Source: Centroscyllium fabricii
Lineage: Eukaryota
Length of the DNA stretch: 64,000 nt
Assembly: GCA_051313645.2 (NCBI GenBank)
Contig: JBNRSN020000007.1
Span: forward strand, 234,980,001 to 235,044,000
Reading direction: 5' to 3'
Both the position numbers and the translations under genes were made by a program. A model generated the notes under the pieces. The model saw only the letters and a program-made list of their open reading frames with translations, had not been told where the DNA came from and ran no database searches. This document shows positions 19,813 to 44,842 of this stretch, piece by piece (position 1 is the stretch's first letter; every line of letters begins with the position of its first letter).

Positions 19813-20258
19813 TGTCAGCTGTGACTCAGTTAGTGGCACTCTCATCAGAAGGTTGTGGGTTCAAGTCCCACTCCAGAGACTGGAGCACAAAATTCTAGGC
19901 TGACCCATCAGTGCAGTGCTGAGGGAGTGCTGCACTGTCGGAGGTGCCGTCTTTTGGATGAGGCACGAAACCAAGGCCCCCTCTGCTCTCCCAGGTGGAC
20001 ATAAAAGATAAAAATTGCACTATTTTGAAGAAGAACAGGGGAGTTATCCTCAGTGTCCTGGCCAATGTTTATTCCTCAATCAACATCACTAATAAAAAAC
20101 AAATTATCTGGTCATTATCACATTGCTATTTCTGTGAGCTTGCTGTGTGCAAACTGACTGCTGCGTTTCCTACATTACAACAGTGATTACACTTCCAAGG
20201 TCCTTAATTGGCTGTAAGACACTTTGGGATGTCCTGTGGTTGTTAAAGGTGCTATATT
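19813..20258 (+). mobile_element. Deu-domain SINE (SacSINE1-like), tail interrupted by an HE1 SINE
   Basis: Colinear with 12845-13291. Confidence 0.8.
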
Positions 20259-20260
20259 AA

Positions 20261-20663
20261 AGGGCGGCACGGTGGCACAGTGGTTAGCACTGTTGTCTCA
20301 CAGCACTGGAGACCCGGGTTCAAATCCAGCCTCGGATACTATCTGTGTGGAGTTTGCACATTCTCCCCGTGTCTGCGTGGGTTTCCTCCGGGTGCTCCGG
20401 TTTCCTCCCACAGTCCAAAGATGTGCGGGTTAGGTTGATTGGCCATGATAAATTGACCCTTAGTGTTAGGGGGATTGAATATGTGGGGTTACGGGGATAG
20501 GGGGGGATATGTGTCGGTGCAGGCTCGATATGGATCGAGGGATTTGGGGAGAGGGCAGGGACAGGGTACTGGGGTTTGGATGATCAGCCATGATCTCATT
20601 GAATGGCGGAGCAGGCTCGAAGGGCCGAATGGCCTTCTCCTGCTCCTAGTTTCTATGTTTCTA
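20261..20663 (+). mobile_element. HE1-type V-SINE
   Basis: GGGCGGCACGGTGGCACAGTGG head, B box GGTTCAAATCC, V domain, TTTCTATGTTTCTA tail. Confidence 0.9.
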
Positions 20664-23065
20664 TTACCACAAATCTTTCTTTTCTTTTAACTCTTCTGCA
20701 TGAAGGCAGTAACCCTTAAATTCAACTATCTTTGTTGCTGTTGCTCTAACAGTTCGCAATTGCTTGACTGTCACCCACCAACGATTGATAAACCGCGATA
20801 GGATATGGAAAATGACCACACATATCTAGAGTGGAGCTATGTACCACTGATTGTACATGATGCCTTGCAAACCTGGCCTGTTGCTCATCCTCAATTACAG
20901 CAGTGAACTCTTAACAGAGGCAAGCTCAGATTGAACCTGGCAAAGATTGAATCACCCTATCTCCCTATGTGATGCGCTATCAATAACTCCAAAAGACTAG
21001 AAGTTATACAAGTAACAAATAAGCTTTTATTCACTAAAGAATGAGAGCATGCCTTTGCTGATCAACTGGTCCAGGACTGAAGGGGGATGGGAAACAGTCA
21101 CCTTTATACCTGGGCCTGAGGGAGGAGCCACAGGCGGAGTCAGCAGAGGCATGTCCAGCTAGGTTACATACATCAGGCAAGAGTGAACTATAATACAACA
21201 ACAACAGTGGTTTACCACATTCACCCCTTGTTTAAAATGAGTCCGGCGGGGTGAAGTGGATTAACATTTATTATAAATTAAGTTTTTCTGGGGGTCTGGT
21301 CTGCCGCTGCGACTGTTGTAGTGCAAGTTCCGGTGTCGAATCCTGGGCGGTCTGGAGCACTGGTGTGTCATCCTCAGCTGCGTTGAGTTGGCGGGTGCTC
21401 AGCGACGGATCCTGGGGCCTTGGCGTGCCGTCTACAGGGGCTAGAAGAACATGCCTTGGCACTGGTGCATCGTGGGTAGCGGTGGGGGTAATGGTGAGGG
21501 GTGGTGGGTAATGGTGGTCTCGGGCTCCGGAGGGTGCTAGATCTCTAATGGAGACCGTGTCCTCCCGCCCGTCAGGGTACACAACATAGGCGTATTGGGG
21601 GTTGGCATGCAGCCCTGTTCCTGGGACTAGGGACAGGGTCACTGGCAAGGCTTGGAAGCTAAGCAGAGCCAGGCCTGGTTAGTACTTGGAAGGGTGACCA
21701 CCAGGGAATACCAGGTGCAGAAGGTCACGAAAGGAGCCCCGGGGAGGGGCGGTTGGCTGAAGATTGTCAGAATGATGGAAAGATGGAATGGCGGCGTGCA
21801 CAGACGCAGCGGCTTTGCTGGACTCTTGGGAGCTCGCAAGATCACATTTCGTTGTTCATGTACTTGTACATTGTATAATGACAATAAAGTTGAATTATTA
21901 TTATTATTAGGAGATGGACCCTTTCGACCAGGGGGTCCGACTTATGGCTCCTCACGTGCTTCCGAAGTAGGACGGGCCCCGGGGATGTCAGCCACGATGG
22001 TAGCGAGGTCCCTGAGGTGGACTTCCTAGGGAAGAGAAACATTTTTTCGTGAGGAGTAGAGTTGGTGGTACAGAGTAGGGATCTGATTGAGTGGAGCGCA
22101 TCAGGGAGGACTTCTTGCCAGCGGGAGACTGGAAGTCTAGCAAGGCGGCCTTCCAGACTGTTGCGTTCTCCCTCTCTACCTGTCCGTTCCCCCGGGGGTT
22201 GTAGCTGGTAGTCCTGCTCCTGGCGACTCCTCTTGCGAGCAGGTACTGGCGCAGCTCGTCACTCATAAAGGAAGAACCCCGGTCGCTATGGATATAGCTG
22301 GGGAACCTGAACAGGGCGAAGAGATTGCGCAGACACTTGATGACTGTGGCAGAGGTCATGTCCGGGCAGGGGATGGCAAAAGGGAAACGTGAGTACTCAT
22401 CAATAATATTGAGGAAGTACACATTGCGGTCAGAGGAGGGGAGGGGCCCTTTGAAGTCGACGCTCAGGCGCTCGAAAGGGCGGGTGGCCTTTATCAGGTG
22501 TGCTCTGTCTGGCCTATGAAAGTGCAGTTTGCACTCGGCACAGACTTGGCAGTTCCTGGTCATGGTCCTGACCTCCTCGCTGGAGTAAGGTAGGTTGCAG
22601 GCCTTGACAAAGTGGAAGAACCTGGTGACTCCCGGCTGGCAGAGATCATTGTGGAGGGACTGCAGTCGATCCAACTGTGCGCTAGCACATGTTCCGCGGG
22701 ATAGGGAATCTGGGGCTCATTGAGCTTCCCGGGCCAGTACAAGATATCATAATTGTAAGTGGCAAGTTTGATTCTCCACCTCAATATCTTGTCATTTTTG
22801 ATTTTGCCCCGCTGCTTGTTATTAAACATGAAAGCAACTGAACGTTGGTCAGTGAGCAGGGTGAATTGTTTACTGGCCAGGTAAAGCCTCCAGTGCCGCA
22901 CAGCTTCCACAATGGCCTGGGCCTCCTTTTCGACAGAGGAGTGTCTAATTTCGGGGCCCTGGAGGGTTCGTGAGAAGAAGGCCACGGGTTTTCCCGCCTG
23001 GTTAAGGGTAGTGGCCAGGGCAAAATCGGACGCATTGCTCTCCACCTGGAACGGGGTGGATTAGT

Positions 23066-26000
23066 TGACGTATCGTCAATAATACTCAAAGACGAATAGT
23101 GACCTTAACTAAAGGCTTTTATTAACTATAAATGGAGCTGGTCTTCGGACGAGATCAGGATGGTGAGTGAATGGGAAATGGTGAGCGCCCACCTATGTAC
23201 TCCGACCTGAGGGGAGGAGTTAGGTGTGGGGCCGTTCCTGTCGTCAGGTATTTACAGATATGTACAGGTGCAGGCTCAGTAATGCCGTCAGGTCATTACT
23301 GCTGTAAACATTATATACAGTTGGTAAATATACGTTTACCACATTCACCCCTTCTTTAAAAATGAGTCCTGCGGGGTGAATGTATGTTAAAACAGTTGGT
23401 CATTTAACATTCCGCGATCAGTCTCTCCGGTGGCCTTGTCTGCCAGAGGGACCGACGGGGTGCCGGTGCTGGCGGTTCCGCCCGCGGGGTCGGGGGTGTG
23501 TCATCCCCCAGTGGTGCCAGCAGCGCGCTGTCCGTCCTCCACTCATCAGCCAGTGATGTCGAGGGCCCCGGTGTGTGTGTGTATGGGGGCCAGTGTTCGG
23601 TGGGTGGTAGCTGAGGCTCCACCGGGGGTTCCATGGTCGTGATCCCGGCGGGAGCCAGGTCCCTGATTGAGACCATGTCTTCGCGCCCGTCCGGGTATGC
23701 CACGTAAGCATATTGCGGGTGGCGTGGAGCAGGTGCACCCGTTCCACCAGGGGGTCCGTCTTGTGGCCGCGGACATGCTTCCTAAGCAAGACTGGCCCCG
23801 GGGTGGTCAGCCACAGTGGGAGTGTTGTTCCCGAAGTTGATTTCCTAGGGAAGGAAAACAGTCGTTCGTGAGGTGTGGCATTGGTAGTGGTGCACAGCAG
23901 AGAGCGGATAAAATGGAGCGCGTCGGGGAGGACCTGCTGCCAACGGAAGACTGGAAGGCCTCTGGACTTCAGGGCCAGGGTGACCGCCTTCCAGATCGTC
24001 CCCTTCTCCCTTTCTACCTGGCCGTTCCCCCGGGGGTTGTAACTGGTTGTTCTGCTCGAGGCAATCCCCCTCTGGAGCAGAAACTGACGTAGTTCGTCGC
24101 TCATAATTGACGACCCCCGGTCGCTGTGGATGTAGCTGGGGAGACCGAAAATGGCGAAGAGCATGGTGAAGTGTTTGATCACCGTTGTGCTCATCATATC
24201 TGGGCAGGGGAAGGCAAAGGGGAAGCGGGAGAACTCGTCGATGACCGTCAGGAAATACGTGTTGCGGTCAGTGGAGGGGAGGGGACCTTTGAAGTCCACA
24301 CTCAGGCGCTCGAAGGGGCGGGTGGCCTTGATGAGGTGCACCCTGTCTGGCCTGTAAAATTGGGGGTTGCATTCAGCACAGACAGAGCATTCTTTGGTCA
24401 TAGCCTTAATCTCCGAGATGGAGTAGGGGAGGCTACGGGACGTCACAAAGTGGGCGAGTCTGGTGACACCCGGGTGGCAGAGGTTGTCGTGGAGGGCCTG
24501 CAGCTGGTCAAGCTGGGCGCTGGCGCACGTTCCCCTGACAGAGCGTCCGGGGGCTCGTTGAGCTTACCTGGCTGGTAAAGTATGTCGTACTCGTAAGTCG
24601 AGAGCTCGATCCGCCACCGAAGGATCTTGTCGTTCTTAATTTTACCCCGCTGTTTATTGTTAAACATAAACACCACCGACTGTTGGTCGGTGAGCAGGGT
24701 AAATCTCTTGCTGACCAGATAGTGGTGCCAGTAGCGCACTGCCTCCACGATAGCCTGGGCCTCCTTTTCCACTGCGGAGTGGCGAATTTTGGGTCCCTGT
24801 AGGGTCCGGGAGAAGAACGCTACGGGCCTGCCCGCCTGGATGAGGGTGGCGGCGAGGGCAAAGTCCGATGCGTCGCTTTCCACCTGGAAAGGGATGGACT
24901 CATCAACGGCGTGCATGGTCGCCTTGATGATGTCTTTCTTGATATGGGCGAATGCCATTTGGGCTTCTGCCGGGAGTGGGAAGACATCAGCCTTGAGCAG
25001 AGGTCTGGCCTTATCTGCATACTGGGGAACCCATTGTGCGTAATAGGAGAAAAGCCCCAGAGATCTCTTCAGGGCTTTGAGGTTGTGAGGTAAGGGCAGC
25101 TCCTGCAGGTGACGCATACGCTGGGGATCGGGGCCGTGGACCCCGTTTTCCACCACGTAGCCGAGGATGGTGAGCCGGTCCATACTAAAGACACATTTGT
25201 CCTTATTGTACTTCAGGTTCAACCGTTGGGCTGTGCGAAGGAATTTGGCGAGGATGGCATCGTGGTCCTGCTGGTCATGGCCGCAGATGGTTATGTTGTC
25301 CAGGTAGGGGAAAGTGGCCTGCAACTCGTTCTGGTCAACCATCTGGTCCATCTCCTGTTGGAAGACCGACACTCCATTGGTCACGCCGAAGGGAACCCGG
25401 AGGAAGTGGTAGAGCCGACCGTTCGCCTCAAAGGCGGTGTACCGGCGGTCGGAATTCCGGATGGGGAGCTGGTGATACGCCGACTTGAGGTCAATCGTGG
25501 AGAAGACCCTGTACTGGGCGATCTGGTTTACCATACCCGAGATGCGGAGGAGGGGGGTAAGCATCGAGCCCGTGTAGCGGTTAATCGTCTGGCTATAGTC
25601 GATGGCCATGCACAGTTTTTCGCCTGTCTTAACCACCACGACCTGGGCCCTCCAGGGGCTGGTGCTGGCCTCAATGATCCCTTCCTTTAGCATGCGCTTG
25701 ACCTCCGACCTGATAAACGCCCGGTCCCCTGCACTGTATCGCCGACTCTTGGTCGCAATGGGTTTGCACTTGGGGTCGAGGTTGGTGAACAGCGAGGAGG
25801 GGGGTCGACTTTCAGTGTGGACAGGCCGCAAGTCGAGCGCCGCGTTAGGTTGGGATCATCCCGGCTACAGATGGTGAGGGGGGCCAGGGACTCCCCGAAT
25901 GCCATCGTCCCGCTCTTCAGGTGACACTGGAAGTCCAGTCCCAGTAATACAGGGGAGCAAAGCTGTGGGAGAATGTACAGCTTAAAGTTGTGGTAAATGC

Positions 26001-27365
26001 GGTCCCTGATGGTGAGCGTGACACTGCAGTAGCCGGTGATGTCTGCTGTGTGGGACTTTGAGGCTAGGGAGATTTGGTAATGTGTGGGCTGGGTCTGCAG
26101 TGCGTAGCGCTGCACGGGGTCAGGATGAATAAAGCTCTCTGTGCTACCTGTGTCGAACAGGCAGTTAGTGGCGTGCCCCTCCACCTTGATCCCCATCATA
26201 GAGTTGGACAAGGCGTGCGGCCTGGCCTGATTGACTGTGGCTGAGGCCGATGTTGTGTGTGTGTGGGGGCCCTCCGCTAGCTCGGGCCCCAGCTGGGGCG
26301 AATGGCAAGATGGCCGCACTGAAGATGGCGGCGCCGGTGATTCACCAGTTACTGGCTGTTGTTGCGGCAAAGATGGCGGCGCCCGTGATTCGCACGCGGC
26401 TGACCGCTGTGAGTAAGATGGCGGCGCCCGTGGTTCGCACACGGCTGACCGCTGTGGGTAAGATGGCGGCACCCGTGGTTCGCACGCGGCTGACCGCTGA
26501 GGGTAAGATGGCGGCGCCCATGGTTCGCACGCGGCTGGTCGCGACTGTGCCGAAGATGGCGGCGCTGGTGGGTCGCACATGGCCGGCCACGGTTGCGCTG
26601 AAGATGGCGGTGCTGGTGGAACGCACATGGCCGACCGCAGTCGCGCTGGCCGCCGCCATAATTTCAACAGGGATGCTTTTAACAGGGATGGCGGCGCCCG
26701 TGGTTTTCACGCGGCTGACCGCTGCTGGGTCGCGCTGCAGCACCGTACCTCTGGCCACAGAGTGGCATCGTTGGCTTCGCAGGCCGCGCTGTTGGGCCGT
26801 GAGGTCAGGCTGGTCTTGCAGGCCTTAGCGAAGTGGCCCTTCTTCCCATACCTCGCGCAGGTCGCGCTCTTCTCGGGGCACAGCTCCCGAGGGTGTTTCG
26901 CCTGGCTGCAGAAGTAGCACTTGGACCCCGCCGGCGTCTTCGCAGCTGCCGCTGCCGTCGTTGGGGCTTCGGCCCGTGTCTGCGGCGCCCAGAGGTTAGG
27001 TTAGCCCGCGTGGGAGTTATTGTCCCCATAACGTCCATGCGCTTGAGCGCCCCATCCACCACATTAGATAGTGTAATGGCGGATTCGAGCGATAGTGTCT
27101 CTTGTTCCAGCTGCCGTTGGCGGGCCTGGCTGGACCCGAGTCCTGCTACATACGTGTCGCGGCCCAGTTGATTGGTGTTTTCTTCTGCCGTCACTGCCTG
27201 GCAGTCGCAGGCCCGTACGAGGGCTTGGAGCGCTAGCAAGAATTCTTCGGTGGACTCACCCAGCCGTTGCCTTCTGGTCGCCAATATATGCCTGGCGTAG
27301 ACCGAGTGGACCGGGCGCATATAGCTGTCCTTCAGTTACTTGGCAGCTTCTGCATACGTCTTGAT
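23066..27365 (-). mobile_element. Nested Gypsy, minus strand, 5' LTR and gag N-terminus lost
   Basis: 3' LTR 23066-23343, PPT at 23344; integrase (SVDFKGP, HSDRGS, GNGQVER) 23418-24446; RT/RNase H 24443-25831 with YLDN; protease LFDTGS; gag remnant to about 27365. Confidence 0.9.
26307..26735. repeat. Tandem array of ~45-bp units in the gag-protease linker
   Basis: Unit AAGATGGCGGCGCCCGTGGTTCGCACGCGGCTGACCGCTGTGGGT, encoding PPSYPQRSAACEPRA repeats on the minus strand; homologous array at about 28500-28730. Confidence 0.85.
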
Positions 27366-30300
27366 GCGTACGGAGACCACAGCCCACACGATACCCCTGA
27401 CCCCTGGGCGACACAGAGACTGGCCGAGACCCCCACAATGGCAGCTGGCTACTTCTGCGGCCAAGGGAAGCACCCGCGGGCGCAGTGCCCCGCGAGGAAC
27501 GCAACCTGCGAGCAGTGCGCGAAGAGGGGGCACTATGCGAAGTCCAGCCCAGCCCACCCTCCACCTCCAGACCCAACAGCGCGGCCTGTAAGAACAGCGA
27601 TGCCACACCATGGCCCAAGGTACGGTGTTCATAGAATCATAGAATCATAGAATCATAGAAGATAGGAGCAGGAGTAGGCCATTCAGCCCTTCGAGCCTGC
27701 TCCGCCATTCAATGAGATCATGGCTGATCTTTAGCAAGCTAGTACCCCGTCCCCGCCTTTTCTCCATAACCTTTAATCCCTTTAGCTTGAAGAAATATAT
27801 CCAATTCCCTCTTGAATATGTTTAATGAACTGGCCTCCACCGCCCTCTGTGGCAGGGAATTCCACAGGCCCACCACTCTCTGAGTGAAGAAATTCTTCCT
27901 CATGTCTGTCCTAAATGGTTTACCCGTTATCCTTAGACTGTGGCCCCTGGTTCTGGACTCCCCCGCCATTGGAAACATTCTCTCTGAATCTAACCTGTCC
28001 AGACCTTTCAGAATTTTATACGTCTCAATGAGATCGCCTCTCAATCTTCTAAACTCCAACGAGTACAAGCCCAGACTACACAATCTCTCCTCGTAGGTCA
28101 TTCCTGCCATTCCAGGAATCAGCCTGGTGAAACGCCGCTGCACTCCTTCCATCGCAAGAACATCCTTCCTCAGGCGAGGCGACCAGAACTGTACACAATA
28201 CTCGAGGTGTGGTCTCACCAGTGCCTTTTACAGCTGCAGTAAGGTATCCTTATTCCTATACTCGAACCCTCTTGATATGAAGGCCAACATACCATTTGCC
28301 GTCCTAACCGCCTGCTGCACCTGCGTGCTCGCCTTCAGCGACTGGTGCACAAGAACACCCAGGTCTCTCTGCACCTCTGCACCTCCCCAGCAGCGGTCAG
28401 CCGGGGGTAAATCGCGGGCACCTCAATCCCATTTAACTATAAGGCGGAGGCTGGCCGCGTGCGAGGCACATGCGCCGCCACTCCAAACATGACCGCGACC
28501 GGCCATGTGCGACCCCCTGGCGCCGCAATCTTCTCTACCGCGGTCGGCCGCGTGTGAACCACAGGCGCCACCATCTTGTTCACCGTGGTCGGGCGCATGC
28601 GAACCACGGGCGCCGCCATCTTATCCACAGCGGTCGGCCGCGTGTGAACCACGGGAGCCGCCATCTTGTCCACAGCAGCCGGACACAGGTGCATTGCCAG
28701 CGCCGCCATCTTCTGAGCGGCCATCTTGCCAACTGCCCCGGCCGGGGCCCCAGCTAGCGGAGGGCCCCCACTCTCACACATACACTTCGGCCTCAGCCAC
28801 TGTCGATCAGGCTAGGCCGCACACCTTGTCCAACTCCATGATGGGGATTAAGGTGGACAGGCACGTCACTAACTGCCTGTTCGACACCGGTAGCACAGAG
28901 AGCTTTATATATCCCGACACAGTGCGGCGCTACGCACTGCAGACCCAGCCCACGCACTACTAAGTCTCCCTTGCCTCAAAGTCCCACACGACGGACGTCA
29001 CTGGCTACTGCAGCATCACGCGCATGATCAGGGACTGCATTTACCGCAACTTTAAGTTGTACGTACTCCAGCAGCTGTGCGCCCCAGTCTTACTGGGACT
29101 GGATTTCCAGTGTCACCTGAAGAGCGTGACGATCGATTTCCGTGGAACCCTGGCCCCCATCACCGTCAGTAGCCGGGACAATCCCAACTTAACGCGGAGC
29201 TTGACTTGCGGCCTGTCCACATTAAAAGTCGACCACCCCTCACTGTTCGCCAATCTCGACCCCAAATGCAAGCCCATTGCTACCAAAAGTCGGCGTGACA
29301 GTGCAGGGGACCGGGCGTTTATCAGGTCGGAGGTCGAGCGCATGCAGAAAGAAGGGATCATTGAGGCCAGCACCAGCCCCTGGCAGGCCCAGGTCGTGGT
29401 GGTTGAGACAGGCGAGAAACTACGCATGGTCATCGACTATAGCTAGATGATTAACCGCTACACCGGGCTCGACGCCTACCCCCTCCCCCGCATCTCGGAT
29501 ATGGTACACCAGATCGCCCAGTACAAGGTCTTTTCCACAATCGCCCTCAAGTCGGCGTATCACCAACTCCCCATCCGGAAAGCCGACCGCCAGTACACCG
29601 CCTTCGAGGCGATCGGCCGGCTCTACCACTTCCTCTGGGTCCCCTTCGGTGTGACCAACGGGGTGTCGGTGTTCCAGAGGGAGATGGACCGCATGGTTGA
29701 CCAGAACGGGTTGCAGGCCACCTTCCCCTACTTGGACAACGTGACCATCTGCGGCCATGACCAGCCGGACCACGATGCCAACCTCGCCAAATTCCTGCAC
29801 ACGGCGAAACGGCTGGACCTCATGTACAATAAAGACAAGTGTGTCTTTAGTATGGATCGGCTCGCTATCCTCGGAAATGTGGTGGAAAACGGGATCCTCG
29901 GCCCCCACCCACAGCGTATGCGCCCCTTGCAAGAGCTGCCCTTACCTCACAACCCCAAAGCCCTGAGGAGATGTCTAGGGTTCTTTTCTATTACGCGCAA
30001 TGGGTCCCCCAGTACGCAGATAAGGCCAGACCTCTCCTCAAGGCTGACATCTTCCCCCTCTCGGAAGAAGCCCAAACGGCATTCGCTCGGATTAAGGAAG
30101 ACATCATCAAGGCGACCATGCACGCCGTTGATGAGTCCATCCCTTTCCAGGTGGAGAGTGACGCTTCGGACTTCGCCCTTGCAGCCACCCTGAACCAGGC
30201 AGGCAGGCCCGTAGTGTATTTCTCCCGGACCCTACAGGGACCCGAAACTCGCCACTCACCAGTGGAAAAGGAGGCCCAGGCCATCGTGGAGGCAGTGCGC

Positions 30301-31974
30301 TACTGGCGTCATTACCTGGCCGGTAAGCATTTTACCCTGCTCACTGACCAACGGTCGGTGGCGTTTATGTTTAATAATAAACAACGGGGTAAGATCAAGA
30401 ATGATAAGATCCTGCGGTGGCGGATCGAACTCTCAACTTACGAGTACGACATTCTTTACCGGCCAGGAACGTGCGCCAGCACCCAGCTTGACCGGCTGAA
30501 GGCCCTCCACGATCGCGTCTGCCACCCGGGTGTCACCAGACTCGCCCACTTCGTCAAATCCCGTAGTCTCCCCTACTCCATCACGGAGATAAAGGCTATG
30601 ACAAAGGACTGCCCTGTCTGCGGCGAGTGCAAACCCCAATTCTACAGGCCAGACATGGCGCACGTCATCAAGGCCACCCGCCCTTTGAACGCCTGAGCGT
30701 GGACTTCAAAGGCCCTCTCCCCTGCACTGACCGCAACTCGTATTTCCTCACGGTCATAGACGAGTTCTCACGCTTCCCCTTTGCCTTCCCCTGCCCAGAT
30801 ATGACGAGCGCAACGGTGATCAAACACTTCACCATGCTGTTCGCCATTTTCGGTCTCCCCAGCTACATCCATAGCGACCACGGGTCGTCGTTCATGAGTG
30901 ATGAACTGCGTCAGTTTTTGCTTCAGAAAGGGGTTGCCTCAAGCAGAACGACCAGTTACAACCCCTGGGGGAACGGCCAGGTAGAAAGGGAGAACAGGAC
31001 CAACTGGAAGGCGGTCAACCTGGGCCTGAAGTCCAGAGGCCTTCCAGTTTCCCGTTGGCAGGAGGTCCTCCCCGACGCGCTCCATGCCATTCGCTCTCTG
31101 TTGTGTACCGCTACTAACTCAACACCTCATGACCTGTTATTTTCATTCCCCAGGAAGTCGACTTCGGGGACAGCACTGCCGCTGTGGCTCACAGCGCAGG
31201 GGCCGGTGTTGCTTAGGAAACACGTCCGCGGCCACAAGACCGACCCCCTGGTGGAACGGGTGCACCTGCTCCACGCCAACCCGCAGTATGCTTACGTGAC
31301 ATTCTCAGACAGGCGCGAGGATACGGTCTCGATCAGGGATCTGGCGCCCGCCGGGAGCACTAGGGCAGAACCCCCGGTTGAGCCTCAGCCCGACCAGCCA
31401 CCACCCACCGAATACTGGCTTCCATACATACACACACCGGGGCCCTCAACACCACCGATCAACGACCCGGGATCGGACACTGCACCGCCGGCACCGTTGG
31501 CGGAGAGCTCGATCCCGGCCCTGCAACCGGCACCACCGCCATTACTGGCACCCCGGCGGTCCTCCAGTCAGTCTCGACCGCCGGAGAGACTAATAGCGCA
31601 ATGCTGATTGCGTATAATGGACATATTGATTTTTTTTTTCTCCTCTCTCTTCCTCTCACCAGAAGGCACGTTCACCCCGCCGGACTTGTTTTTAAAGAAG
31701 GGGTGAATGTGGTAATCGTGTATTACCATTGTATATAGTGATGTGCTCACCTTACCATTGTATATAGTTGATGTGCTCACCTTGACATTGTATGCTAGGC
31801 CAGGTCAGCCACACCCCTAACTCCTCCCCTCAGGTCGGAGCATATAGCTGAGGGCTGCCCTGCCCCCGCTCACTCTCGCCCTGAACTTGACAGGAGACTA
31901 GCTCCATTGTAAGTGAATAAAAGCCTATAGTTTGGGTAACTACTCGTCTTTTGCATTTGATTGACGATACATCA
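27361..31974 (+). mobile_element. Nested Gypsy, plus strand, 5' LTR and most of gag lost
   Basis: CCHC knuckle near 27450-27540, protease LFDTGS, RT with YLDN (29729-29740), RNase H, integrase 30627-31607, PPT to 31707, 3' LTR 31708-31974 (TGTGG...CATCA). Confidence 0.9.
27631..28380 (-). mobile_element. CR1/HER1 LINE 3' end inserted in the plus-strand Gypsy
   Basis: Open ORF2 C-terminus [13 protein letters not shown]...RKNFFTQRVVGLWNSLP; (ATTCTATG)n tail at 27631-27660. Confidence 0.9.
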
Positions 31975-33403
31975 TCCAGGTACGGGACTGTGGCCTGCAG
32001 CCCGTTCTGGTCAACTATTCGGTCCAGCTCCCGCTGGAAGACCGAGACCCCATTGGTGATGCCGAAGGGGACCCTAAGGAAGTGGTAGAGGCGGCCATCC
32101 GCCTCAAAGGCAGAGTACTGGTGGTCCTCCGGGCGGATAGGGAGTTGGCGGTACGCGGACTTTAAGACGATTGTGGAGAATACCCGGTGCTGTGCAATCT
32201 GATTGACCATGTCAGATATGCGGGGAAGGGGGTTTGCGCCCAGCTGCGTATATCGGTTGATGGTCTGGCTATAGTCAATGAGCAGGCAGTGTTTCTCACC
32301 GGTCTTGACGACCACCATTTGGGCTCTCCAGGGGCTCGTGCTAGCCTCAATGATCCCCTCCTTCAGGAGCTGTTGCACCTCTGATTTGATAAACATTCTG
32401 TCCCCAGCATTGTATCACCTACTCTTGGTGGCGACGGGCTTACAGTCTGGGGTAAGGTTAGCGAACAGCGGGGGAGTGGTGACGTAAGATTCGAGAGGCT
32501 GCAGATGGTGCGTGGTGGCCGATTTAAAGGCTGTTGGTTGTAGACAGTGGGGGAGGGGGTGATGGTGCGTGGTGGGCGATTTTAAATACTGCTGGCTGCA
32601 GACAGTGAGAGGGGGAAGGGGCCCATCGTACTCCATTGTGACACTTTTAAGGTGGCATTGGAAATCTAGCCCCAGTAGCACGGCAGCGCAGAGCAGTGCT
32701 AGAATGAGGAGGTTGAAATCTTTGTACTCCGTGCCCCTCACAGTCAGGGTCACTACACAGTAGCCGCCGACATCCGCTGTATGGAACTTGGAGGCCATAG
32801 AGTTCTTTTGGCTTGCTGGCATTACTGGGAGGGAGTAGCGCCGCACTGTGTTGGGGTGGACAAAGCTCTCCGTGCTCCCGCAGTCAAACAGGCAGTTCAT
32901 ATCGCGGCCGTTTACCTTAATGTTCATCATGGACCTGGCGAGTTGGTGAGGCCTGGATTGATCCAGGGTGATGGAGGCCAGCGTTAAGTTTGTTGGGTCA
33001 CTGTCGTACTCAGTTGAGGCGGTGGGGGAAGTCAGGGGCCTGATCCAAAAATGGCGGCCTGCACGGCTCACGTGGCAGATGGCGTCCAAGATGGCAGCCC
33101 CCATGGCCCACACGCGGCGCTGCTGGAGTTGGAGGTCGATTTGGCCTTGCACACCTTAGCGTAGTGCCCCTTCTTACAGCAACTGGAGCAGATGGCATCC
33201 TTTGCCAGGCAGCGTTGTCTGAGGTGCTTGGCCTGGCCGCAGAAGTAGCACTTCAGGCCCCTGGACATTGCAGCTGTAGTCGGGTCGCTGGTGGGTCACA
33301 GGCCTCTGGACATCGCGGCTGTAGTCGGGTCGCTGGTGGGTCACGGCGGTGGCGGCGTGGCGCAGGCTGGCGGCACTCCTGAGTCCCAAGGTGGCGGCGC
33401 CCG

Positions 33404-33639
33404 TGTGGTAATCGTGTAATAACCACTGTAAATAGTTGCTGGTTCACCTGTACTGTTTGCAGGCCAGGTCAGCCACACCCCTAACTCCTCCCCTCAGGTC
33501 GGAGTATATAGGTGAGTGCCGCCCTGCCCCCACTCATTCTTCACCTTGACATCATCAGGAGACCAGCTCCATTCTTAGTTAATAAAAGCCTGTAGTTTAG
33601 GTAACTACTCGTCTTTGTGTATTAATTGACGATACATCA
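33404..33639 (+). mobile_element. Solo LTR related to 31708-31974, inside the outer gag
   Basis: TGTGGTAATC...GATACATCA; no short TSD, but flanked by a 127-bp direct duplication. Confidence 0.85.
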
Positions 33640-35781
33640 ATAGTCGGGTCGCTGGTGGGTCGCAGGCCTCTGGACATCGCGGCTGTAGTCGGGTCGCTGG
33701 TGGCTCGCAGCGGTGGCGGCGTGGCACAGGCTTGCGGCCCTCCCGAGTCCCAAGATGGTGGCGCCCGCGACATCTACGATGTGGCCACGTCGTCAGGGGA
33801 GTAGGCGTGCATGTTTTGGTGGGCTACGTCCAGTGAGTCAGCGAGGATCACAGCCTTCTGCAGGTCGAGTCCACTCTGTTCTAACAGTCTCTGCCAGGTG
33901 TAGCTGGACCTGATGCCGGCGCCATAGGCATCCCAGATTAAGTCCTCCGTGTTTTCTGTGGCTATCACCGCTTTGCACTGACAGGCCCAACCGAGGACTC
34001 TCAGTGCCCTTAGATATTCGTCGCCCGACTCCCCGGGTCGCTGCTTGTAGGTAGCCAGGTGGTGTCTGGCGTAGACCTCATTGACCATTTTAGTATATTG
34101 ACTTTTCAGGAGTTTGATCGCGCCCGTATAGGATTTAGCGTCTCTGATCATCGAATACACTTGGTGGCTCACCCGGGAGTTGAGTACAAGCAACTTGTCG
34201 GCATCGGACTTGACGGTAGCGGTGGAGGCCTGCAGGAATGCTTCGAAGCAGCTCAGCCAATGCTCGAAATTGTTGGAGGCATCCGCTGATTGAGGATCCA
34301 GTTCTAGCCATTCAGGCTTCAATCTTTGCTCCATAGTAAACATTTAGTGAATAAAATTGATGCGCTATCAATAACTCCAAAAGACTAGAAGTTAAACAAG
34401 TAACAAATAGGCTTTTATTCACTAAAGAATGAGAGCATGCCTCTGCTGATCAACTGGTCCAGGACTGAAGGGGGATGGGAAACAGCCACCTTTATACCTG
34501 GGCCTGAGGGAGGAGCCACAGGCGGAGTCAGCAGGGGCATGTCCAGCCAGGTTACATACATCAGGTAAGAGTGAACTATAATACAACAACAGTGGTTTAC
34601 CACACTATGTAAATAAGAATTGCTGTTCAGGCCTCCAAAATTATCTTGTATCCTTAACAGAAAACCAGTCCTGGGACTGTTGAATCAGACTAGATGTCAC
34701 TGTATTTGAATAAACATGTTTAACAATGATAAACAGTTACAATTGCAAGAAAAAACAACATGGAACCACATCGTAATTGCCTCAGTACAAACTTGCCTCG
34801 GTGTCTCCTTTGCCTTGCTGTATGCAAGTTAAATGTTAAACCAGCTTAGTGCCCTTGTATATTTTAAAATATGTGTGATAATTTTTAATATATTTTTGTG
34901 GCAGAGATTCTGAATGAAATGTTACATTTGTGACTGTATTCCAGACATGCTGGGTAGATGGAATTCTACCCTTGTTTCACTAACATGAAACAGAATTTTT
35001 ATGGAATAATAATTAGTGCTAATCATTAACAGACTGGCTATGAAGGAAAGAAAATTGTAGACATAATTCTTTTGAAATTTAAACTAATCTTTGTAAAACA
35101 AATTCCTGGTTGCTATGGCAGAGTCTATTTAGTTGTTGAAATAAACCACTATTATATATCATAGACATATCATAAAGATGTTATCAATGGAAACTCTTAA
35201 CAAAAGTGTCGATCTTTGGCTCACACCAAATGCTAATAGTAGCTTGACTTGGATCACATCCATCCTTATACATTGGAGTCTTCTTAAGATCATGTTTTAT
35301 TTGGCAGAGGAATTTAATGACCTCAAGGGTTAATAGATGTACAGCGTTAATCTTAACCAAGAAAATTTACATTTCAGTGAATGGAAACTTGTTCAGGTGG
35401 ACACTTTTCTAGGTGTGCAATTTGTTCTCTGTTTCAGACCCATTTGCTGCCCTTTCACCTATGCACTCATTGCCTTCAGTTAGTAATGTAAGTTAGTCAA
35501 ACTAATGCCCTTCATAACTGCTATGAGTGCTCCTCTATTTTGGATGAAAGAAGTCATGGAATAAAATAGGTTTCTCTGACTTTAAAATAAAAATCTCAGA
35601 TGGAGCAGTCCACTAAGGTGAGACCTCATACTTGGCAGCTGAACAAGAAAATGGCATTACTTTTTCCCACAGAGTACATGAAAAATCTTGGACCTGTAGC
35701 AGGATTGTTCTTTTCAGAGTTAATCTTGCGTGGGCTCTGCTGTGCTTTGTTTTTACACATAGGCCAGTACCGATGTTGAAA

Positions 35782-36660
35782 TAAGAACATAAGAAATAGG
35801 AGCAGGAGTAGGCCATACGGCCCATCAAGTCTACTCCGCCATTCAATAAGATCATGGCTAAATTATTACATCAACTCCACTTTCCCGCCCTATCCCCATA
35901 TCCCTTGATTCACTTAGTGCCCAAAAATCTATCAATCTCAGTCTTGAATATACTCAACAACTGAGCCTCCACAGCTCTCTGGGGTAGAGAATTCCAAAGA
36001 TTCACAACCCTCTGAGTGAAGAAATTTCTCCTCATCTCAGTCCAAAATGGCCAAAACCTTATCCTGAGACTATAACCCCTGGTTCTATAATCTCCAGTCA
36101 GGGGACTCAGCCTTTCAGCATCTACCCTGTCTAGCCCGCTAAGATTTTTATATGTTTCAATGAGATCACCGCTCATTCTTCTAAACTCTGGAGAGTATCG
36201 GCCCATTCTACTCAATCTCTCATCATAGGACAGCCCTCTCATCCCAGGAATCAATCTGGTGAACCTTCATTGCACCCCCTCTAAGGCAAGGAGACCAAAA
36301 CTGTACACAGTACTCCAGGTGTGGTCTCACTAAAACCCTACATAATTGCAGCAAGACTTCCTTACTCTTCTACTCCAACCTCCTTGCAATAAAAGCTAAC
36401 ATACCATTTGCCTTCCTAATTGTTTGCTGTCCCTGCATGTTAACTTTCTGTGATTTGTGTGCAAGGACACCTAAATCTCTCTGAATAGCAACATTTACTA
36501 GTCTGTCACATTAAAAAAAATATTCTGCTTTTCCATTCTTCAAAGTGAATAATTTCATACTTCCCCACATTATACTCCATCTGCCACCGTGTTGCCCAAT
36601 TACTTAACTGGCCTATATCCCTTTGCAGCAACTTTGTATTCTCCTCGCAGCTTACTTTTG
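35782..36660 (-). mobile_element. CR1/HER1 LINE 3' fragment
   Basis: [13 protein letters not shown]...GDLIETYK...RRNFFTQRVVNLWNSLP and the 3' tail. Confidence 0.85.
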
Positions 36661-40743: not shown

Positions 40744-43524
40744 CTAATTGCCCTTGAGAAGATGGTGGTGAGCCACCTTCTTGAACCGCTGCAGTCCATA
40801 TGGTGTAGGTACACCTACAATGTTGTTAGGAAGGGAGTTCCAGGATTTTGGCCCAGCGACAGTGAAGGAGCGGCGATACAGGTCCAAGTCAGGATGGTGT
40901 GTGGCTTGGAGGGAAACTTGTAGGTGGTGCTGTTCCCATGCATCTGCTGCCCTTGTCCTTCTAAGTGGTAGAGGTCGTGGGTTTGGAAGGTGCTGTTGAA
41001 GGAGCTTTGGCGAGTTGCTGCAGTGCATCTTGCAGATGGTACACACTGCAGCCACAGTGCGCCGGTGGTGGAGGGAGTTAATGTTGAAGGTGGTGGCTGG
41101 AGTGCCAATCAAGCGGCCTGCTTTATCCTGAATGGTGTCGAGCTTCTTGAGGGTTGTTGGAGCTGCACTCATCCAGGCAAGTGGAGAGTATTCCATCACA
41201 CTCCTGACTTGTGCCTTGTAGATGGTGGAAAGGCTTTGGGGAGTCAGGAGGTGAGACACTCGCCGCAGAATTCCCAGCCTCTGGCCTGCTCTTGTAGCCA
41301 CAGTATTTATATGGCTGGTCCAGTTCAGTTTCCGATCAATGGTAACCCCCAGGATGTTGATAGTGGGGGATTCAGCGATGATAATGCCATTGAATGTCAA
41401 GGGGAGATGGTTAGAGTCTCGCTTGTTGGAGATGGTCATTGCCTGGCACTTGTGTGGTGCGAATGTTACTTGCCACTTGTCAGCCCAAGTCTGAATGTTG
41501 TCCAGGTCTTGCTGCATATGGACACGGACTGCGTCAGTATCTGCCGAGTCTCGAATGGTGCTGAACAGTGTGCAATCATCAGCGAACATCCCCACTTCTG
41601 ACTTTATGATGGAGGGAAGGTCATTGATGAAACAGCTGAAGATGGTTGTGCCTAGGACACTGCCCTGAGGAACTCCTGCAGTGATGTCCTGTGGTTGAGA
41701 TGAATGACCTCCAACAACCACAGCCAACTTCCTTTGTGCTAGGTATGATTCCAACCAATGGAGAGTTTTCCCCTTGATTCCCATTGACTTCAGCTTTGCC
41801 AGGGCTCCTTGATGCCACACTCGATCAAATGCTGCCTTGATGGCAAGGGCAGTCACTCTCACCTCACCTCTTGAGTTCAGCTCTTTTGCCCATGTTTGGA
41901 CCAAGGCTGTGATGAGGTCAGGAGCTGAGTGGCCCTGGCGGAACCCAAACTGGGCGTCAGTTAGCAGGTTATTGCTGAGTAAGTGCCGCTTGATAGCACT
42001 GTCGACGACACCTTCCATCACTTTGCTGATGATTGAGAGTAGACTGATGGGACGATAATTGGCCGGGTCGGATTTGTCCTGCTTTTTGTGGACAGGACAT
42101 ACTTGGGCAATTTTCCACATTGCTGGGTAGATGCCAGTGTTGTAGCTGTACTGGAACAGCTTGGCTAGGGGCGCAGCTAGTTCTGGAGCACAGGTCTTCA
42201 GTACTATTGCCGGAATGTTGTCAGGGCCCATAGCCTTTGCAGTATCCAGTGTCTTCAGCCGTTTCTTGACATCACGTGGAGTGAATTGAATGGGCTGAAG
42301 ACTGGCATCTGTGATGCTGGGGACCTCAGGAGGAGGCCGAGATGGATCATCCACTCGGCATTTCTGGCTGAAGATAGTTGCAAATGCTTCAGCCTTGTCT
42401 TTTGCACTCACGTGCTGGGCTCCACCATCGTTGAGGATGGGGATATTTTTGGAGCCTCCTCCTCCTGTTAACTGTTTAATAGTCCACCACCACTCACGAC
42501 TGGATGTGGCAGGACTGCAGAGCTTTGATTTGATCCGATGGTTGTGAGATCGCTTAGCTCTGTCTATCGCATGTTGCTTCTGTTGTTTGGCATGCAAGTA
42601 GTCCTGTGTTGTAGCCTCGCCAGGTTGACAACTCATTTTTCGGTATGCCTGGTGCTGTTCCCGGCATGCTCTCCTGCACTCTTCGTTAAACCAGGGTTGA
42701 TCTCCCGGCTTGATGGTAATGGTAGAGTGAGGGATATGCCGGGCCATGAGGTCACAGATTGTGGTTGAATACAATTCTGCTGCTGCTGATGGCCCACAGC
42801 GCCTCATGGATGCCCAGTTTTGAGTTGCCAGATCTGTTCGAAATCTGTCCCATTTAGCACGGTGGTAGTGCCACACAACACGGTGGAGGGTATCCTCAAC
42901 ATGAAGACGGGACTTCATCTCCACAAGGACTGTGCGGTGGTCACTTCCACCAATGCTGTCATGGACAGATGCATCTGCAACAGGTAGATTGGTGAGGACG
43001 AGATCAAGTAGGTTTTTCCCTCTTGTTGGTTCCCTCACCACCTGTCGCAGCCCCAGTCTGGCAGCTATGTCCTTTAGGACTCGGCCAGCTCGGTCAGTTG
43101 TGGTGCTATCGAGCCACTCTTGGTGATGGACATTGAAGTCCCCCACCCAGAGGACATTTTGTGCCCTTGCTACTCTCAGTGCTTCTTCCAATTGATGTTC
43201 AACATGGAGGAGTACTGATTCATCAGCTGAGGGAGGGCGGTAGGTGGTAATTAGTAGGAGGTTTCCTTGCCCATGTTTGACTTGATGCCATGAGACCTCA
43301 TGGGGTCCTGAGTCAATGTTGAGGACTCCCAGGGCTACTCCCTCCCGACTGTATACCACAGTGCCACCACCTCTGGTGGGTCTGTCCTGCCGGTGGGACA
43401 GGACATACCCAGGAATGGTGATGCTGGTGTCTGGGACATTGGCTGTGAGGTATGATTCTGTGAGTATGACTATGTCAGGCTGTTGCTTGACTAGTCTGTG
43501 GGACAGCTCTCCCAATTTTGGCAC
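40744..43524 (-). CDS. APE endonuclease-reverse transcriptase polyprotein (frame open from 43662; true start unknown)
   Basis: APE motifs NIWGL, LTES, YRPP, GDFN, LDL, SDH; RT motifs NYRPISLL, QFGFR, AFD, GVPQGS, FADD; no stop or frameshift in 972 sense codons; the track's start codon is GTG. Confidence 0.9.
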   Translation of the reverse strand: MPKLGELSHRLVKQQPDIVILTESYLTANVPDTSITIPGYVLSHRQDRPTRGGGTVVYSREGVALGVLNIDSGPHEVSWHQVKHGQGNLLLITTYRPPSADESVLLHVEHQLEEALRVARAQNVLWVGDFNVHHQEWLDSTTTDRAGRVLKDIAARLGLRQVVREPTRGKNLLDLVLTNLPVADASVHDSIGGSDHRTVLVEMKSRLHVEDTLHRVVWHYHRAKWDRFRTDLATQNWASMRRCGPSAAAELYSTTICDLMARHIPHSTITIKPGDQPWFNEECRRACREQHQAYRKMSCQPGEATTQDYLHAKQQKQHAIDRAKRSHNHRIKSKLCSPATSSREWWWTIKQLTGGGGSKNIPILNDGGAQHVSAKDKAEAFATIFSQKCRVDDPSRPPPEVPSITDASLQPIQFTPRDVKKRLKTLDTAKAMGPDNIPAIVLKTCAPELAAPLAKLFQYSYNTGIYPAMWKIAQVCPVHKKQDKSDPANYRPISLLSIISKVMEGVVDSAIKRHLLSNNLLTDAQFGFRQGHSAPDLITALVQTWAKELNSRGEVRVTALAIKAAFDRVWHQGALAKLKSMGIKGKTLHWLESYLAQRKLAVVVGGHSSQPQDITAGVPQGSVLGTTIFSCFINDLPSIIKSEVGMFADDCTLFSTIRDSADTDAVRVHMQQDLDNIQTWADKWQVTFAPHKCQAMTISNKRDSNHLPLTFNGIIIAESPTINILGVTIDRKLNWTSHINTVATRAGQRLGILRRVSHLLTPQSLSTIYKAQVRSVMEYSPLAWMSAAPTTLKKLDTIQDKAGRLIGTPATTFNINSLHHRRTVAAVCTICKMHCSNSPKLLQQHLPNPRPLPLRRTRAADAWEQHHLQVSLQATHHPDLDLYRRSFTVAGPKSWNSLPNNIVGVPTPYGLQRFKKVAHHHLLKGN

Positions 43525-43906
43525 AAGTCCCCAGATGTTTGTGAGGAGGACTTTGCAGGGTCGACAGGGCCAGGTTTGCCGTTGACGTTGTCGTTTCCGG
43601 TGCCGAGGTCGATGCCGGGTGGTCCATCCGGTTTTATTTTTATTGGTTTTCGTAGCGGTTGATTACAACTGAGTGGCTTGCTAGGCCATTTCAGAGGGCA
43701 TTAAGAGTCAACCACATTGCTGTGGGTCTGGAGTCACATGTAGGCCAGACCAGGTAAGGACGGCAGATTTCCTTCCCTAAAGGACATTAGTGAACCAGAT
43801 GGGTTTTGCAACAATCGACAATGGTATCATGGTCGCCATTACTAAGAATAACATTTAATTCCAGAATTAAATTGAATTGAATTTAAATTCCACCAGCTGC
43901 CGTGGT

Positions 43907-43993: not shown

Positions 43994-44842
43994 TGTGGAG
44001 AGATGAGAAAAACTGGGGGTTTCTCCTTGGAGCAGAGAAGGGTAAGAGGAAATGTAATCGAGGTGTTCCAAATCATGAAGGGTTTTGATAGAGTAAATAA
44101 AGAAAAAGGATTTAGAGTGGCAGAAGGGTTGGTAACCAGAGGAAACAGATTTAAGGTAAAGGGCGGCACGGTGGCATAGTGGTTAGCACTGTTGCCTTAC
44201 AGCACTAGAAACCCGGGTTCAAATCCAGCCTTGAGGTACTGTCTGTGTGGAGTTTGCACATTCTCCCCGTGTCTGCGTGGGTTTCCTCCGGGTGCTCCGG
44301 TTTCCTCCCACAGTCCAAAAGATGTGCAAGTTAGGTTGATTGGCCAGGATAAATTGACCCTTAGTGTTAGGGGGATTGAATATGTGGGGTTACGGGGATA
44401 GGGTGGGATATGTGTCGGTGCAGGCTCGCTAGGGATCGAGGGATATGGGGACAAGGCAGGGACAGGGTACTGGGTTTAGATGATCAGCCATGATCTCATT
44501 GAATGGCGGAGCAGGCTCGAAGGGCCGAATGGCCTACTCCTGCTCCTATCTTCTATGTTTCTATTTAATTGGCAAAAGAACCAGAGGTAAGATGAGGCGA
44601 ATTTTTTTGTGCAGCGAGTTGTTATGATCTGGAATACACTGCCTGAAAGGGTGGTGGAAGCAGATTCAATAATAACTTTCAAAAGGGAATTTGATATATA
44701 CTTGAAAAGCAAGAATTTGCAGGGCTATTGGGAAAGGGCAGGAGAATGGGACGAATTGGATAGCTTTTTTAAAGAGCTGGCACAGGTACGATGGGCCAAA
44801 GTGTGCTGTATCATTCTATGATTCTATCTATGATTCTATGAT
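43994..44842 (+). mobile_element. CR1 LINE 3' part (continuation of 39740-40660), interrupted by an HE1 SINE
   Basis: FSLEQRR, RRIFFVQRVVMIWNTLPERVVEA, (ATTCTATG)n tail. Confidence 0.85.
44161..44563 (+). mobile_element. HE1-type V-SINE
   Basis: Same head, V domain and tail as 20261-20663. Confidence 0.9.

What the first reader, a model, noticed from the sequence alone, without database searches (positions are those of the whole stretch)
34343..34426. Gypsy with no tRNA primer-binding site: a 14-nt perfect complement to its own LTR takes its place
Seen: on the sense (minus) strand the 5' LTR ends ...GCGCATCA and is followed by A-TTTTATTCACTAAA instead of TGG. These 14 nt (34343-34356) are the exact reverse complement of LTR bases 34413-34426, which include the AATAAA signal. 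Established: most LTR elements prime on a tRNA 3' end (PBS begins TGG), while Tf1/sushi elements self-prime using the first nucleotides of their RNA. Inference: here the pairing partner seems to be internal and overlaps the poly(A) signal, so it could be a different self-priming mode, or a way to mask the 5' poly(A) signal, or both.
Basis: partly seen in the sequence, partly recalled or inferred. Interest (0 to 1): 0.7.

Follow-up and report, generated by a model that had tools for sequence, protein, structure and literature searches.

The report
Gypsy element primes at polyA signal
This jumping gene and thousands of its relatives have, where a host tRNA normally binds, a short sequence that matches their own end-repeat across the polyadenylation signal, and copying errors left in the genome show that this spot likely serves to start copying with a piece of the element's own RNA taken from inside the repeat, not from its very front as in the one proven yeast case.

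Summary
Confirmed. The 14 nt after the 5' LTR (34356-34343, minus strand) are the exact complement of LTR 34426-34413, which ends on AATAAAA. The pairing holds in thousands of copies of many sister families, with compensatory changes (positions 8, 9, 12: 431 of 456 pairs; shuffles at most 292), and in 3 of 3 distant relatives whose 5' junction was recovered. No single tRNA can follow these changes. Two footprints mark the site as a working primer-binding site: base changes pile up at its far end (57 of 376 against 1 of 376 in the LTR partner; a recurrent A>C at position 13), and fold-back copies start exactly there, some integrated with target-site duplications. TATA/initiator spacing and 6 fold-back ends put the RNA start about 40 nt upstream of the helix, so the primer is not the first bases as in Tf1. 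Which R copy donates it (3' end or second RNA versus 5' end) is unresolved; poly(A) masking is untested. No RNA data. This scan found the same arrangement before in at least five other genomes; I found no paper on it.

The parts
34358..34604 (-). 5' LTR (247 nt, TG...CA) of element A
   Evidence: 96-97% identical to 21219-20970; TSD CATAG
34605..34609 (-). target-site duplication CATAG, 5' side
34491..34496 (-). TATA box (TATAAA)
   Evidence: 30 nt before the initiator A; spacing 30-32 nt in 9 of 12 reference LTRs, no TATA-motif match in the other 3
34462..34468 (-). initiator-like TCAGTCC; inferred RNA start at A 34466 (+1)
   Evidence: motif spacing; 6 of 38 fold-back arms end within 3 nt of the equivalent base; no RNA data
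34428..34436 (-). segment that can pair with the gag start codon region (possible second helix)
   Evidence: predicted; AUG pairing probability above 0.5 in about half of 201 folded copies; not tested for covariation
34413..34426 (-). self-primer sequence in R (+41 to +54), ending on the poly(A) signal AATAAA (34419-34414) plus one A
   Evidence: exact complement of 34343-34356; covaries across families
34357..34357 (-). one-base spacer A; faces G of the LTR, unpaired
   Evidence: G.A in 106 of 107 copies
34343..34356 (-). primer-binding site without TGG
   Evidence: error hot spot at positions 11-14 and fold-back junctions in family copies
33774..34334 (-). gag 5' part of element A, ending in a stop at 33774
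   Evidence: 186 aa, no Pfam hit
31975..33155 (-). protease and RT pieces of element A
   Evidence: Pfam gag-asp_proteas, RVT_1
21909..23060 (-). RNase H and integrase pieces of element A
   Evidence: Pfam RT_RNaseH, rve
21220..21233 (-). polypurine tract AAACAAGGGGTGAA, preceded by a T run
20970..21219 (-). 3' LTR (250 nt), with the second copy of the primer sequence
20965..20969 (-). target-site duplication CATAG, 3' side

Best explanation
This is a compact Gypsy retrotransposon whose primer-binding site pairs with its own repeat sequence ending on the polyadenylation signal, and which likely starts reverse transcription from that piece of its own RNA instead of a host tRNA. Shown: the pairing, its covariation, and DNA footprints that place the 3' end of plus-strand strong-stop DNA 10-14 nt into this site. 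Inferred: the RNA starts about 40 nt upstream of the helix; an R copy is cut or trimmed just after AAUAAAA to free a 3' OH; its 5' part is then removed by RNase H once minus-strand DNA complementary to R exists, leaving a purine-rich remnant of about 12 nt that plus-strand synthesis copies, often adding a C. I lean (about 0.45) to the donor being the R copy at the RNA 3' end or on the partner RNA, against about 0.3 for a cut in the template's own 5' R and about 0.15 for a second, Tf1-like start at the primer itself.
For: Covariation: positions 8, 9, 12 pair in 431 of 456 cells of 152 copies, 5,000 shuffles mean 257, maximum 292; 12 different perfectly paired 12-mers. Genome-wide, LTRs with AGTT before AATAAAA have the complementary A in 3,251 and another base in 95. 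A junction predicted from sister LTR ends was found 3,156 times, control 0; 23 of 30 fetched keep 11-14 bp. Distant relatives L160, L292, L293 (45-63% identity over RT-RNase H) have 12, 14 and 13 bp at the same place, L292 with ATTAAA/TTTAAT; three outgroup elements have TGG-type sites. Error footprint: positions 11-14 depart in 57 of 376 cells in the site, 1 of 376 in the LTR partner, while positions 1-7 do not differ (12 vs 7 of 658); A>C at 13 in 20 of 94 copies, scattered on the tree (18 changes, shuffled mean 18.6), also C at 13 in 9 of 77 copies of other families. Fold-backs: of 38 examined, 15 arms end at the LTR start, 6 within 3 nt of the inferred RNA start, 5 run past the purine tract; 4 of 6 with a U3 end on both sides have a 5-bp target duplication. 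For a donor other than the template's own 5' end: no error hot spot at +54 (14 variant LTRs, one of them G, against 45 at a control A); G excess at -1 (17 of 35 variants, about 19% expected); three copies (L201, L281, L385) carry a two-base foreign allele in the binding site while R, U5, leader and gag are their own type.
Against: No RNA or cDNA end was observed. Fold-backs can form from plus-strand DNA annealing to any R copy, so they mark the site and the RNA 5' end but not the donor. Shuffle tests ignore relatedness. The G at -1 was not shared by the mate LTR in 0 of 2 true pairs, though it was in 2 pairs of one sublineage. Minus-strand transfer leaves little footprint anywhere, which weakens the +54 result, and the control A lies in a different mutation context. 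Two copies (L383, L386) have the two-base swap in the 5' LTR only, so short conversion or assembly mixing also occurs here; L237 belongs to an intermediate lineage. The local 5' hairpin folds with pair probability about 0.96, which favours a cis 5' partner. The C at 13 could also be a copy of a cap on a 12-nt primer.
Confidence: 0.8

Rival explanations
1. Self-priming in cis from the 5' R: the local hairpin forms, is cut after AAUAAAA (+54/+55), the 54-nt capped fragment primes and is trimmed later. A sub-case of the best explanation, differing in the donor.
For: Local helix probability 0.95-0.97 in the window element and median 0.97 over 201 copies; flanking U5 stems resemble part of the Tf1 structure described in PMC10085805; 6 fold-backs end at the inferred RNA start.
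Against: No error footprint at +54 in 94 5' LTRs or genome-wide; mild G excess at -1; three copies with a foreign allele in the binding site but own U5. All weak.
Confidence: 0.3
2. Plain Tf1 mode from a second start site: the packaged RNA begins at the primer (about 12 nt, capped), and the TATA-driven start makes only mRNA.
For: The added base at position 13 is C in 20 of 26 departures, as a copied cap G would give (recalled RT behaviour); A and G at positions 11 and 10 are nearly invariant; Tf2 uses alternative starts (PMC5341516, passages).
Against: No TATA 30 nt before the primer; +1 would be a U in most families; C and G also appear at 14-16 and A/G at 11, which looks like ragged ends; no cluster of fold-back arms can be seen at that point, and 6 end at the upstream start.
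Confidence: 0.15
3. The helix only hides the 5' poly(A) signal (and perhaps the gag AUG); priming uses something else.
For: The helix covers the hexamer in all families and in 3 of 3 distant relatives; only the 5' LTR has the partner in cis.
Against: No other primer site fits in the 24 nt before the ATG; a primer at this position must itself read like the LTR segment; error and fold-back footprints need a DNA 3' end there. Masking as a second role stays open (about 0.4).
Confidence: 0.05
4. A host tRNA, tRNA half or other host RNA is the primer and the LTR match is incidental.
For: The tRNA set checked was small: 30 loci, of which the 8 typed were Lys or Cys.
Against: 12 different paired 12-mers in one genome and ATTAAA/TTTAAT in a relative follow the LTR, not a fixed host RNA; no CCA complement; longest match to the fetched tRNA regions 5 nt; no Rfam match at gathering score.
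Confidence: 0.03

Closest known systems
Tf1/Tf2 (Schizosaccharomyces pombe), Tj1, Tosmo and the Tf1/sushi chromoviruses
   Same: No tRNA site; the position after the 5' LTR pairs with the element's own R sequence; short primer (11 nt in Tf1); Ty3/Gypsy domain order. In Tf1 RNase H cuts between bases 11 and 12 (PMC7175516, passages); Tf1 RT adds non-templated bases (PMC3185545, passage).
   Different: [quoted passage not shown] No chromodomain found. Elements are about 4.4 kb. Only one of the two extra Tf1 'pretzel' duplexes has a visible counterpart.
Plant Tcn1 chromoviruses and TAR copia elements (predicted self-priming)
   Same: Self-complementary site predicted from sequence (PMC6317226, passages).
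   Different: Other lineages and hosts; the passages seen do not place the partner on the poly(A) signal.
Mag-lineage Gypsy elements of marine invertebrates (A/B/C clades, MolGy clades)
   Same: Host range of the nearest proteins (rays, cnidarians, molluscs, flatworm, nematode, arthropods) and short LTRs fit; the gag start looks Mag-like (recalled, from no call).
   Different: Placement against named Mag elements was not tested (no reference sequences on hand). PMC6238403 and PMC8220671 (passages) say nothing on priming.
Retroviral poly(A) hairpin and U5:AUG pairing (HIV-1)
   Same: A 5' structure that can hide AAUAAA and the gag AUG (recalled).
   Different: Those viruses prime on tRNA; here the masking partner is the primer-binding site itself.

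Membership tests
Ty3/Gypsy LTR retrotransposon | Two LTRs TG...CA with short target duplication and purine tract | tested here: met
   22 of 23 checked family pairs have 4-5 of 5 matching duplication bases
Ty3/Gypsy LTR retrotransposon | gag-PR-RT-RH-IN order, RT nearest to Ty3 | tested here: met
   Pfam order in element A; best solved-structure match Ty3 RT, E 1e-41, for the nested sister element D
Tf1/sushi self-priming group | No tRNA site; site pairs with own LTR | tested here: met
Tf1/sushi self-priming group | Primer is the first bases of the transcript | tested here: not met
   Indirect only: TATA-initiator spacing and 6 of 17 internal fold-back ends put the start about 40 nt upstream; a second start is not excluded
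Tf1/sushi self-priming group | Chromodomain after integrase | tested here: not met
   No Pfam chromodomain at E up to 1 in 5 family pieces and 2 nested integrases
Tf1/sushi self-priming group | RT groups with chromoviruses | not tested
   No Tf1 or sushi sequence was available; the tree holds none
Tf1/sushi self-priming group | RNase H cuts the RNA duplex to free the primer | not testable with these tools
   needs biochemistry
Tf1/sushi self-priming group | Three-duplex 'pretzel' structure | tested here: inconclusive
   Predicted fold shows the central helix and a U5 extension, and pairs the leader upstream rather than downstream of the primer; no covariation test
Mag lineage (A/B/C clades) | RT groups with Mag, SURL, CFG1, Gulliver | not tested
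   No reference sequences; resemblance recalled only
tRNA-primed LTR elements | Site begins TGG and matches a tRNA 3' end or half | tested here: not met
   No TGG in 30 + 30 + 100 listed junctions (one search's set was selected for TTTTATT); tRNA set checked was small

The most novel reading that the evidence does not exclude
A widespread, chromodomain-less Gypsy clade of animals primes reverse transcription with the 3' end of its own (or its partner's) RNA: the R copy next to the poly(A) tail is trimmed back to AAUAAAA on the primer-binding site, so the poly(A) signal doubles as primer, the same helix hides the 5' poly(A) signal, and self-priming arose independently of Tf1.
Probability: 0.4. 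Interest if true: 0.8.

Novelty: new variant of a known kind. Interest (0 to 1): 0.62.

Why it matters
How reverse transcription starts is a defining trait of LTR elements, and tRNA-free priming is proven only for Tf1. A second geometry, in an abundant animal clade with thousands of copies in a vertebrate genome, would mean an independent origin of self-priming, would put these elements out of reach of host tRNA-fragment defences aimed at the primer site (inference), and would tie 3'-end formation to priming. The footprints used here (error peak at the end of the site, integrated fold-backs) let one map reverse-transcription intermediates from genome sequence alone. Annotation tools that demand a tRNA site will miss or mis-score these elements.

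Tried and rejected
RNA evidence: no RNA holder listed; the three runs laid were contigs and cannot show starts or ends. Poly(A) site from processed copies: none among 582 hexamer sites in fetched loci. Viral contigs: no relative. Metagenome and genome contigs gave 12 loci; 3 in-clade loci had a 5' junction, 3 partial ones (L295, L296, L298) did not, 6 were more distant. tRNA search returned only the top-scoring genes, Lys and Cys among those typed, so it is not a full test. Global fold z-score not significant. Linkage of U3, R, U5 and gag among families did not reveal clean recombinants that fix the strand-transfer point. G at -1 as cap footprint: inconclusive. Foreign alleles in the binding site as proof of trans priming: 9 genome-wide hits, 3 clean, 1 explained by a deletion, 1 in an intermediate lineage, 1 with gag disrupted, 2 with the swap in the 5' LTR only, 1 with no mate found. 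A second initiator at CTCATT just before the helix was considered; it may instead pair with the gag AUG, in about half of copies. Literature: 10 searches found no paper on this arrangement; the primary Tf1 papers were not held, so Tf1 facts come from passages of reviews. Repbase and GyDB pages are not searchable here; I recall Repbase notes on 'self-primed' animal Gypsy families but could not check them. No supplements were read.

Full report
1. The observation. On the minus strand the LTR ends GCGCATCA at 34358, followed by A and TTTTATTCACTAAA (34356-34343), the exact reverse complement of 34426-34413, which ends on AATAAAA. The LTR is 34604-34358, its mate 21219-20970 (96-97% identical), both flanked by CATAG, with a purine tract before the 3' LTR. 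The gag ATG follows 24 nt after the LTR. None of 20,000 shuffles of the LTR gave 14 bp at this position (largest 12). Other perfect inverted repeats of this size exist in the window and the overall fold is not unusual (z -0.40), so the position carries the signal.

2. The element. Element A is a broken Gypsy element (protease, RT, RNase H, integrase by Pfam), stretched to 13.6 kb by nested sister elements. Family copies with both LTRs mostly span 4.1-4.2 kb between LTR ends. No chromodomain was found in 5 family pieces or 2 nested integrases. Because A's pol is in pieces, protein searches used the RT-RNase H frame of nested sister D (76% identical to A's RT piece). Its nearest named relatives are from rays, cnidarians, a mollusc, a fluke, nematodes and arthropods. 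The genome is 7.2 Gb. A Mag-lineage placement is recalled, not tested.

3. Conservation and covariation. Of the 30 fetched best copies (window included), 21 keep 14 of 14 pairs. From LTR ends of the nested sisters, whose 5' junctions are not in the window, I predicted LTR end + N + TTTTATT and found 3,156 matches, control 0. Of 30 fetched, 23 keep 11-14 bp, 5 are broken by a mismatch and 2 lost the partner to insertions. In 152 copies (one counted twice) positions 8, 9 and 12 pair in 431 of 456 cells (G-C, T-A and C-G at position 8); 5,000 shuffles gave mean 257, maximum 292; 12 different 12-mers pair perfectly. These copies are related, so this is not a probability. Genome-wide, LTRs with AGTT before the hexamer have the complementary base in 3,251 cases and another in 95. 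The helix ends sharply: the next pair is G.A in 106 of 107 copies. Outside this genome, 3 of 3 in-clade loci with a 5' junction show the same design (L160 12 bp, L292 14 bp with ATTAAA/TTTAAT, L293 13 bp), and three more distant elements have TGG-type sites; the two sets fall on opposite sides of a supported branch. A fixed host RNA cannot follow these changes. The direct tRNA check was small.

4. Is it a working primer site? A pattern that leaves the site free found 1,673 junctions. I fetched 99 of the first 100; 95 kept the partner, 42 had both LTRs; one outlier was left out of the counts. In 94 copies positions 11-14 of the site depart from the expected base in 57 of 376 cells, against 1 of 376 in the LTR partner, while positions 1-7 do not differ (12 against 7 of 658). 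Position 13 is A>C in 20 copies and position 11 changes to A, G or C in 12. The C is scattered over the tree (18 changes for 20 rows, shuffled mean 18.6) and also appears in 9 of 77 copies of other families, so it recurs in each cycle. This is what a DNA 3' end with added bases would leave where plus-strand strong-stop DNA ends; Tf1 RT is known to add such bases (PMC3185545, passage). Following a lead from an earlier finding I searched for fold-backs, where the site runs on as the complement of upstream LTR: 33 and 9 matches, 38 distinct loci examined. Fifteen arms end at the LTR start, 5 run past the purine tract, 6 end within 3 nt of the inferred RNA start, 11 end elsewhere inside and 1 is unclear. 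Four of 6 with a U3 end on both sides carry a 5-bp target duplication (three 5 of 5, one 4 of 5), the other two run into the purine tract; these were made before integration, not in the chromosome.

5. Where does the RNA start? TATAAA lies 30 nt before the A of TCAGTCC (34466), and the spacing is 30-32 nt in 9 of 12 reference LTRs. Six of 17 internal fold-back ends fall in a 6-nt window there (rough p 7e-6), and five of them then jump into gag or pol at short homologies. The primer is therefore at about +41 to +54, not the first bases as in Tf1 (PMC7175516, PMC10085805, PMC4600332, passages). No RNA data could be had, and a second start at the primer, with the C at 13 as a copied cap, is not excluded.

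6. Which copy donates the primer? A cut in the template's own 5' R would end minus-strand strong-stop DNA at +55. No variant excess is seen there (0 of 94 5' LTRs at +54; genome-wide 14 variants, one G, against 45 at a control A in another context). At -1, G is the commonest variant (17 of 35, about 19% expected from host changes), as cap copying would give, but 0 of 2 true mate LTRs share it, while 2 pairs of one sublineage do. Three copies carry a two-base foreign allele in the site with their own R, U5, leader and gag, suggesting a primer from another RNA, but two others carry such a swap in the 5' LTR only. The local hairpin is strongly predicted. I lean to a 3'-end or partner-RNA donor (0.45) over a cis 5' cut (0.3) and a Tf1-like second start (0.15). 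In the first two cases RNase H could trim the primer's 5' part once minus DNA covers R (inference).

7. Poly(A) masking. The helix covers the hexamer in every family, and may extend to the gag AUG in about half of 201 folded copies. This is a plausible second role, untested, and cannot be the only role, since no other primer site exists.

8. Comparison and novelty. It works like Tf1 but fails two tested Tf1/sushi features (primer at the RNA front, chromodomain). Ten literature searches found no description; of the papers opened I saw passages only. Repbase, GyDB and subscription journals were out of reach and may already note self-priming in such families. This scan reported the same arrangement in at least five other genomes; those notes gave me the fold-back and footprint leads and are not counted as support. 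Verdict: real, new variant of a known kind, interest 0.62.

Noticed in passing
window 23065-31974: Two sister-family elements nested in element A lie head to head: D (minus, 3' LTR about 23334-23065) and C (plus, 3' LTR ending 31974). Both lack their 5' LTR and meet near 27340-27400, an inversion or deletion junction.
   Followed up: partly
window about 33404-33639: A lone LTR of another sister family (plus strand) sits in gag of element A, between two copies of a 127-nt stretch (33277-33403 and 33641-33767, 92% alike) instead of a short target duplication.
   Followed up: no
window 26321-26732 and 28453-28716: 45-48 nt tandem repeats between the gag zinc knuckle and the protease in elements D and C.
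   Followed up: no
L069, L078, L079, L092: Small palindromic elements (LTR, binding site, inverted R-U3) with two U3 ends and a 5-bp target duplication: integrated by-products of reverse transcription.
   Followed up: yes
window 34413-34426 and 21220-21237: The self-primer is built like the purine tract: a T run followed by 11-12 mostly purine bases, which may make it resist RNase H in the same way.
   Followed up: no
L383, L386 (mates in L391, L388): The 5' LTR alone carries another subfamily's two-base allele in the primer sequence, while the 3' LTR and binding site keep their own; unexplained (short conversion or assembly mixing).
   Followed up: partly
window 34435-34447 and sister LTRs: A small hairpin (GGAG-n5-CTCC type) just upstream of the primer recurs in many families; 6 short fold-back arms end at +21 to +32, in or beside it.
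   Followed up: partly
L292, L293, L294, L297, L300: Contigs filed in bacterial metagenome-assembled genomes are whole LTR retrotransposons, likely host contamination.
   Followed up: no
window 20258-20665, 44157-44565, 27647-27781, 35774-35912: Copies of a short interspersed repeat with a tandem tail, recalled as typical of cartilaginous fishes; the nearest named RT proteins are from rays.
   Followed up: no
window 40744-43662: A 972-codon open frame on the minus strand, not examined.
   Followed up: no
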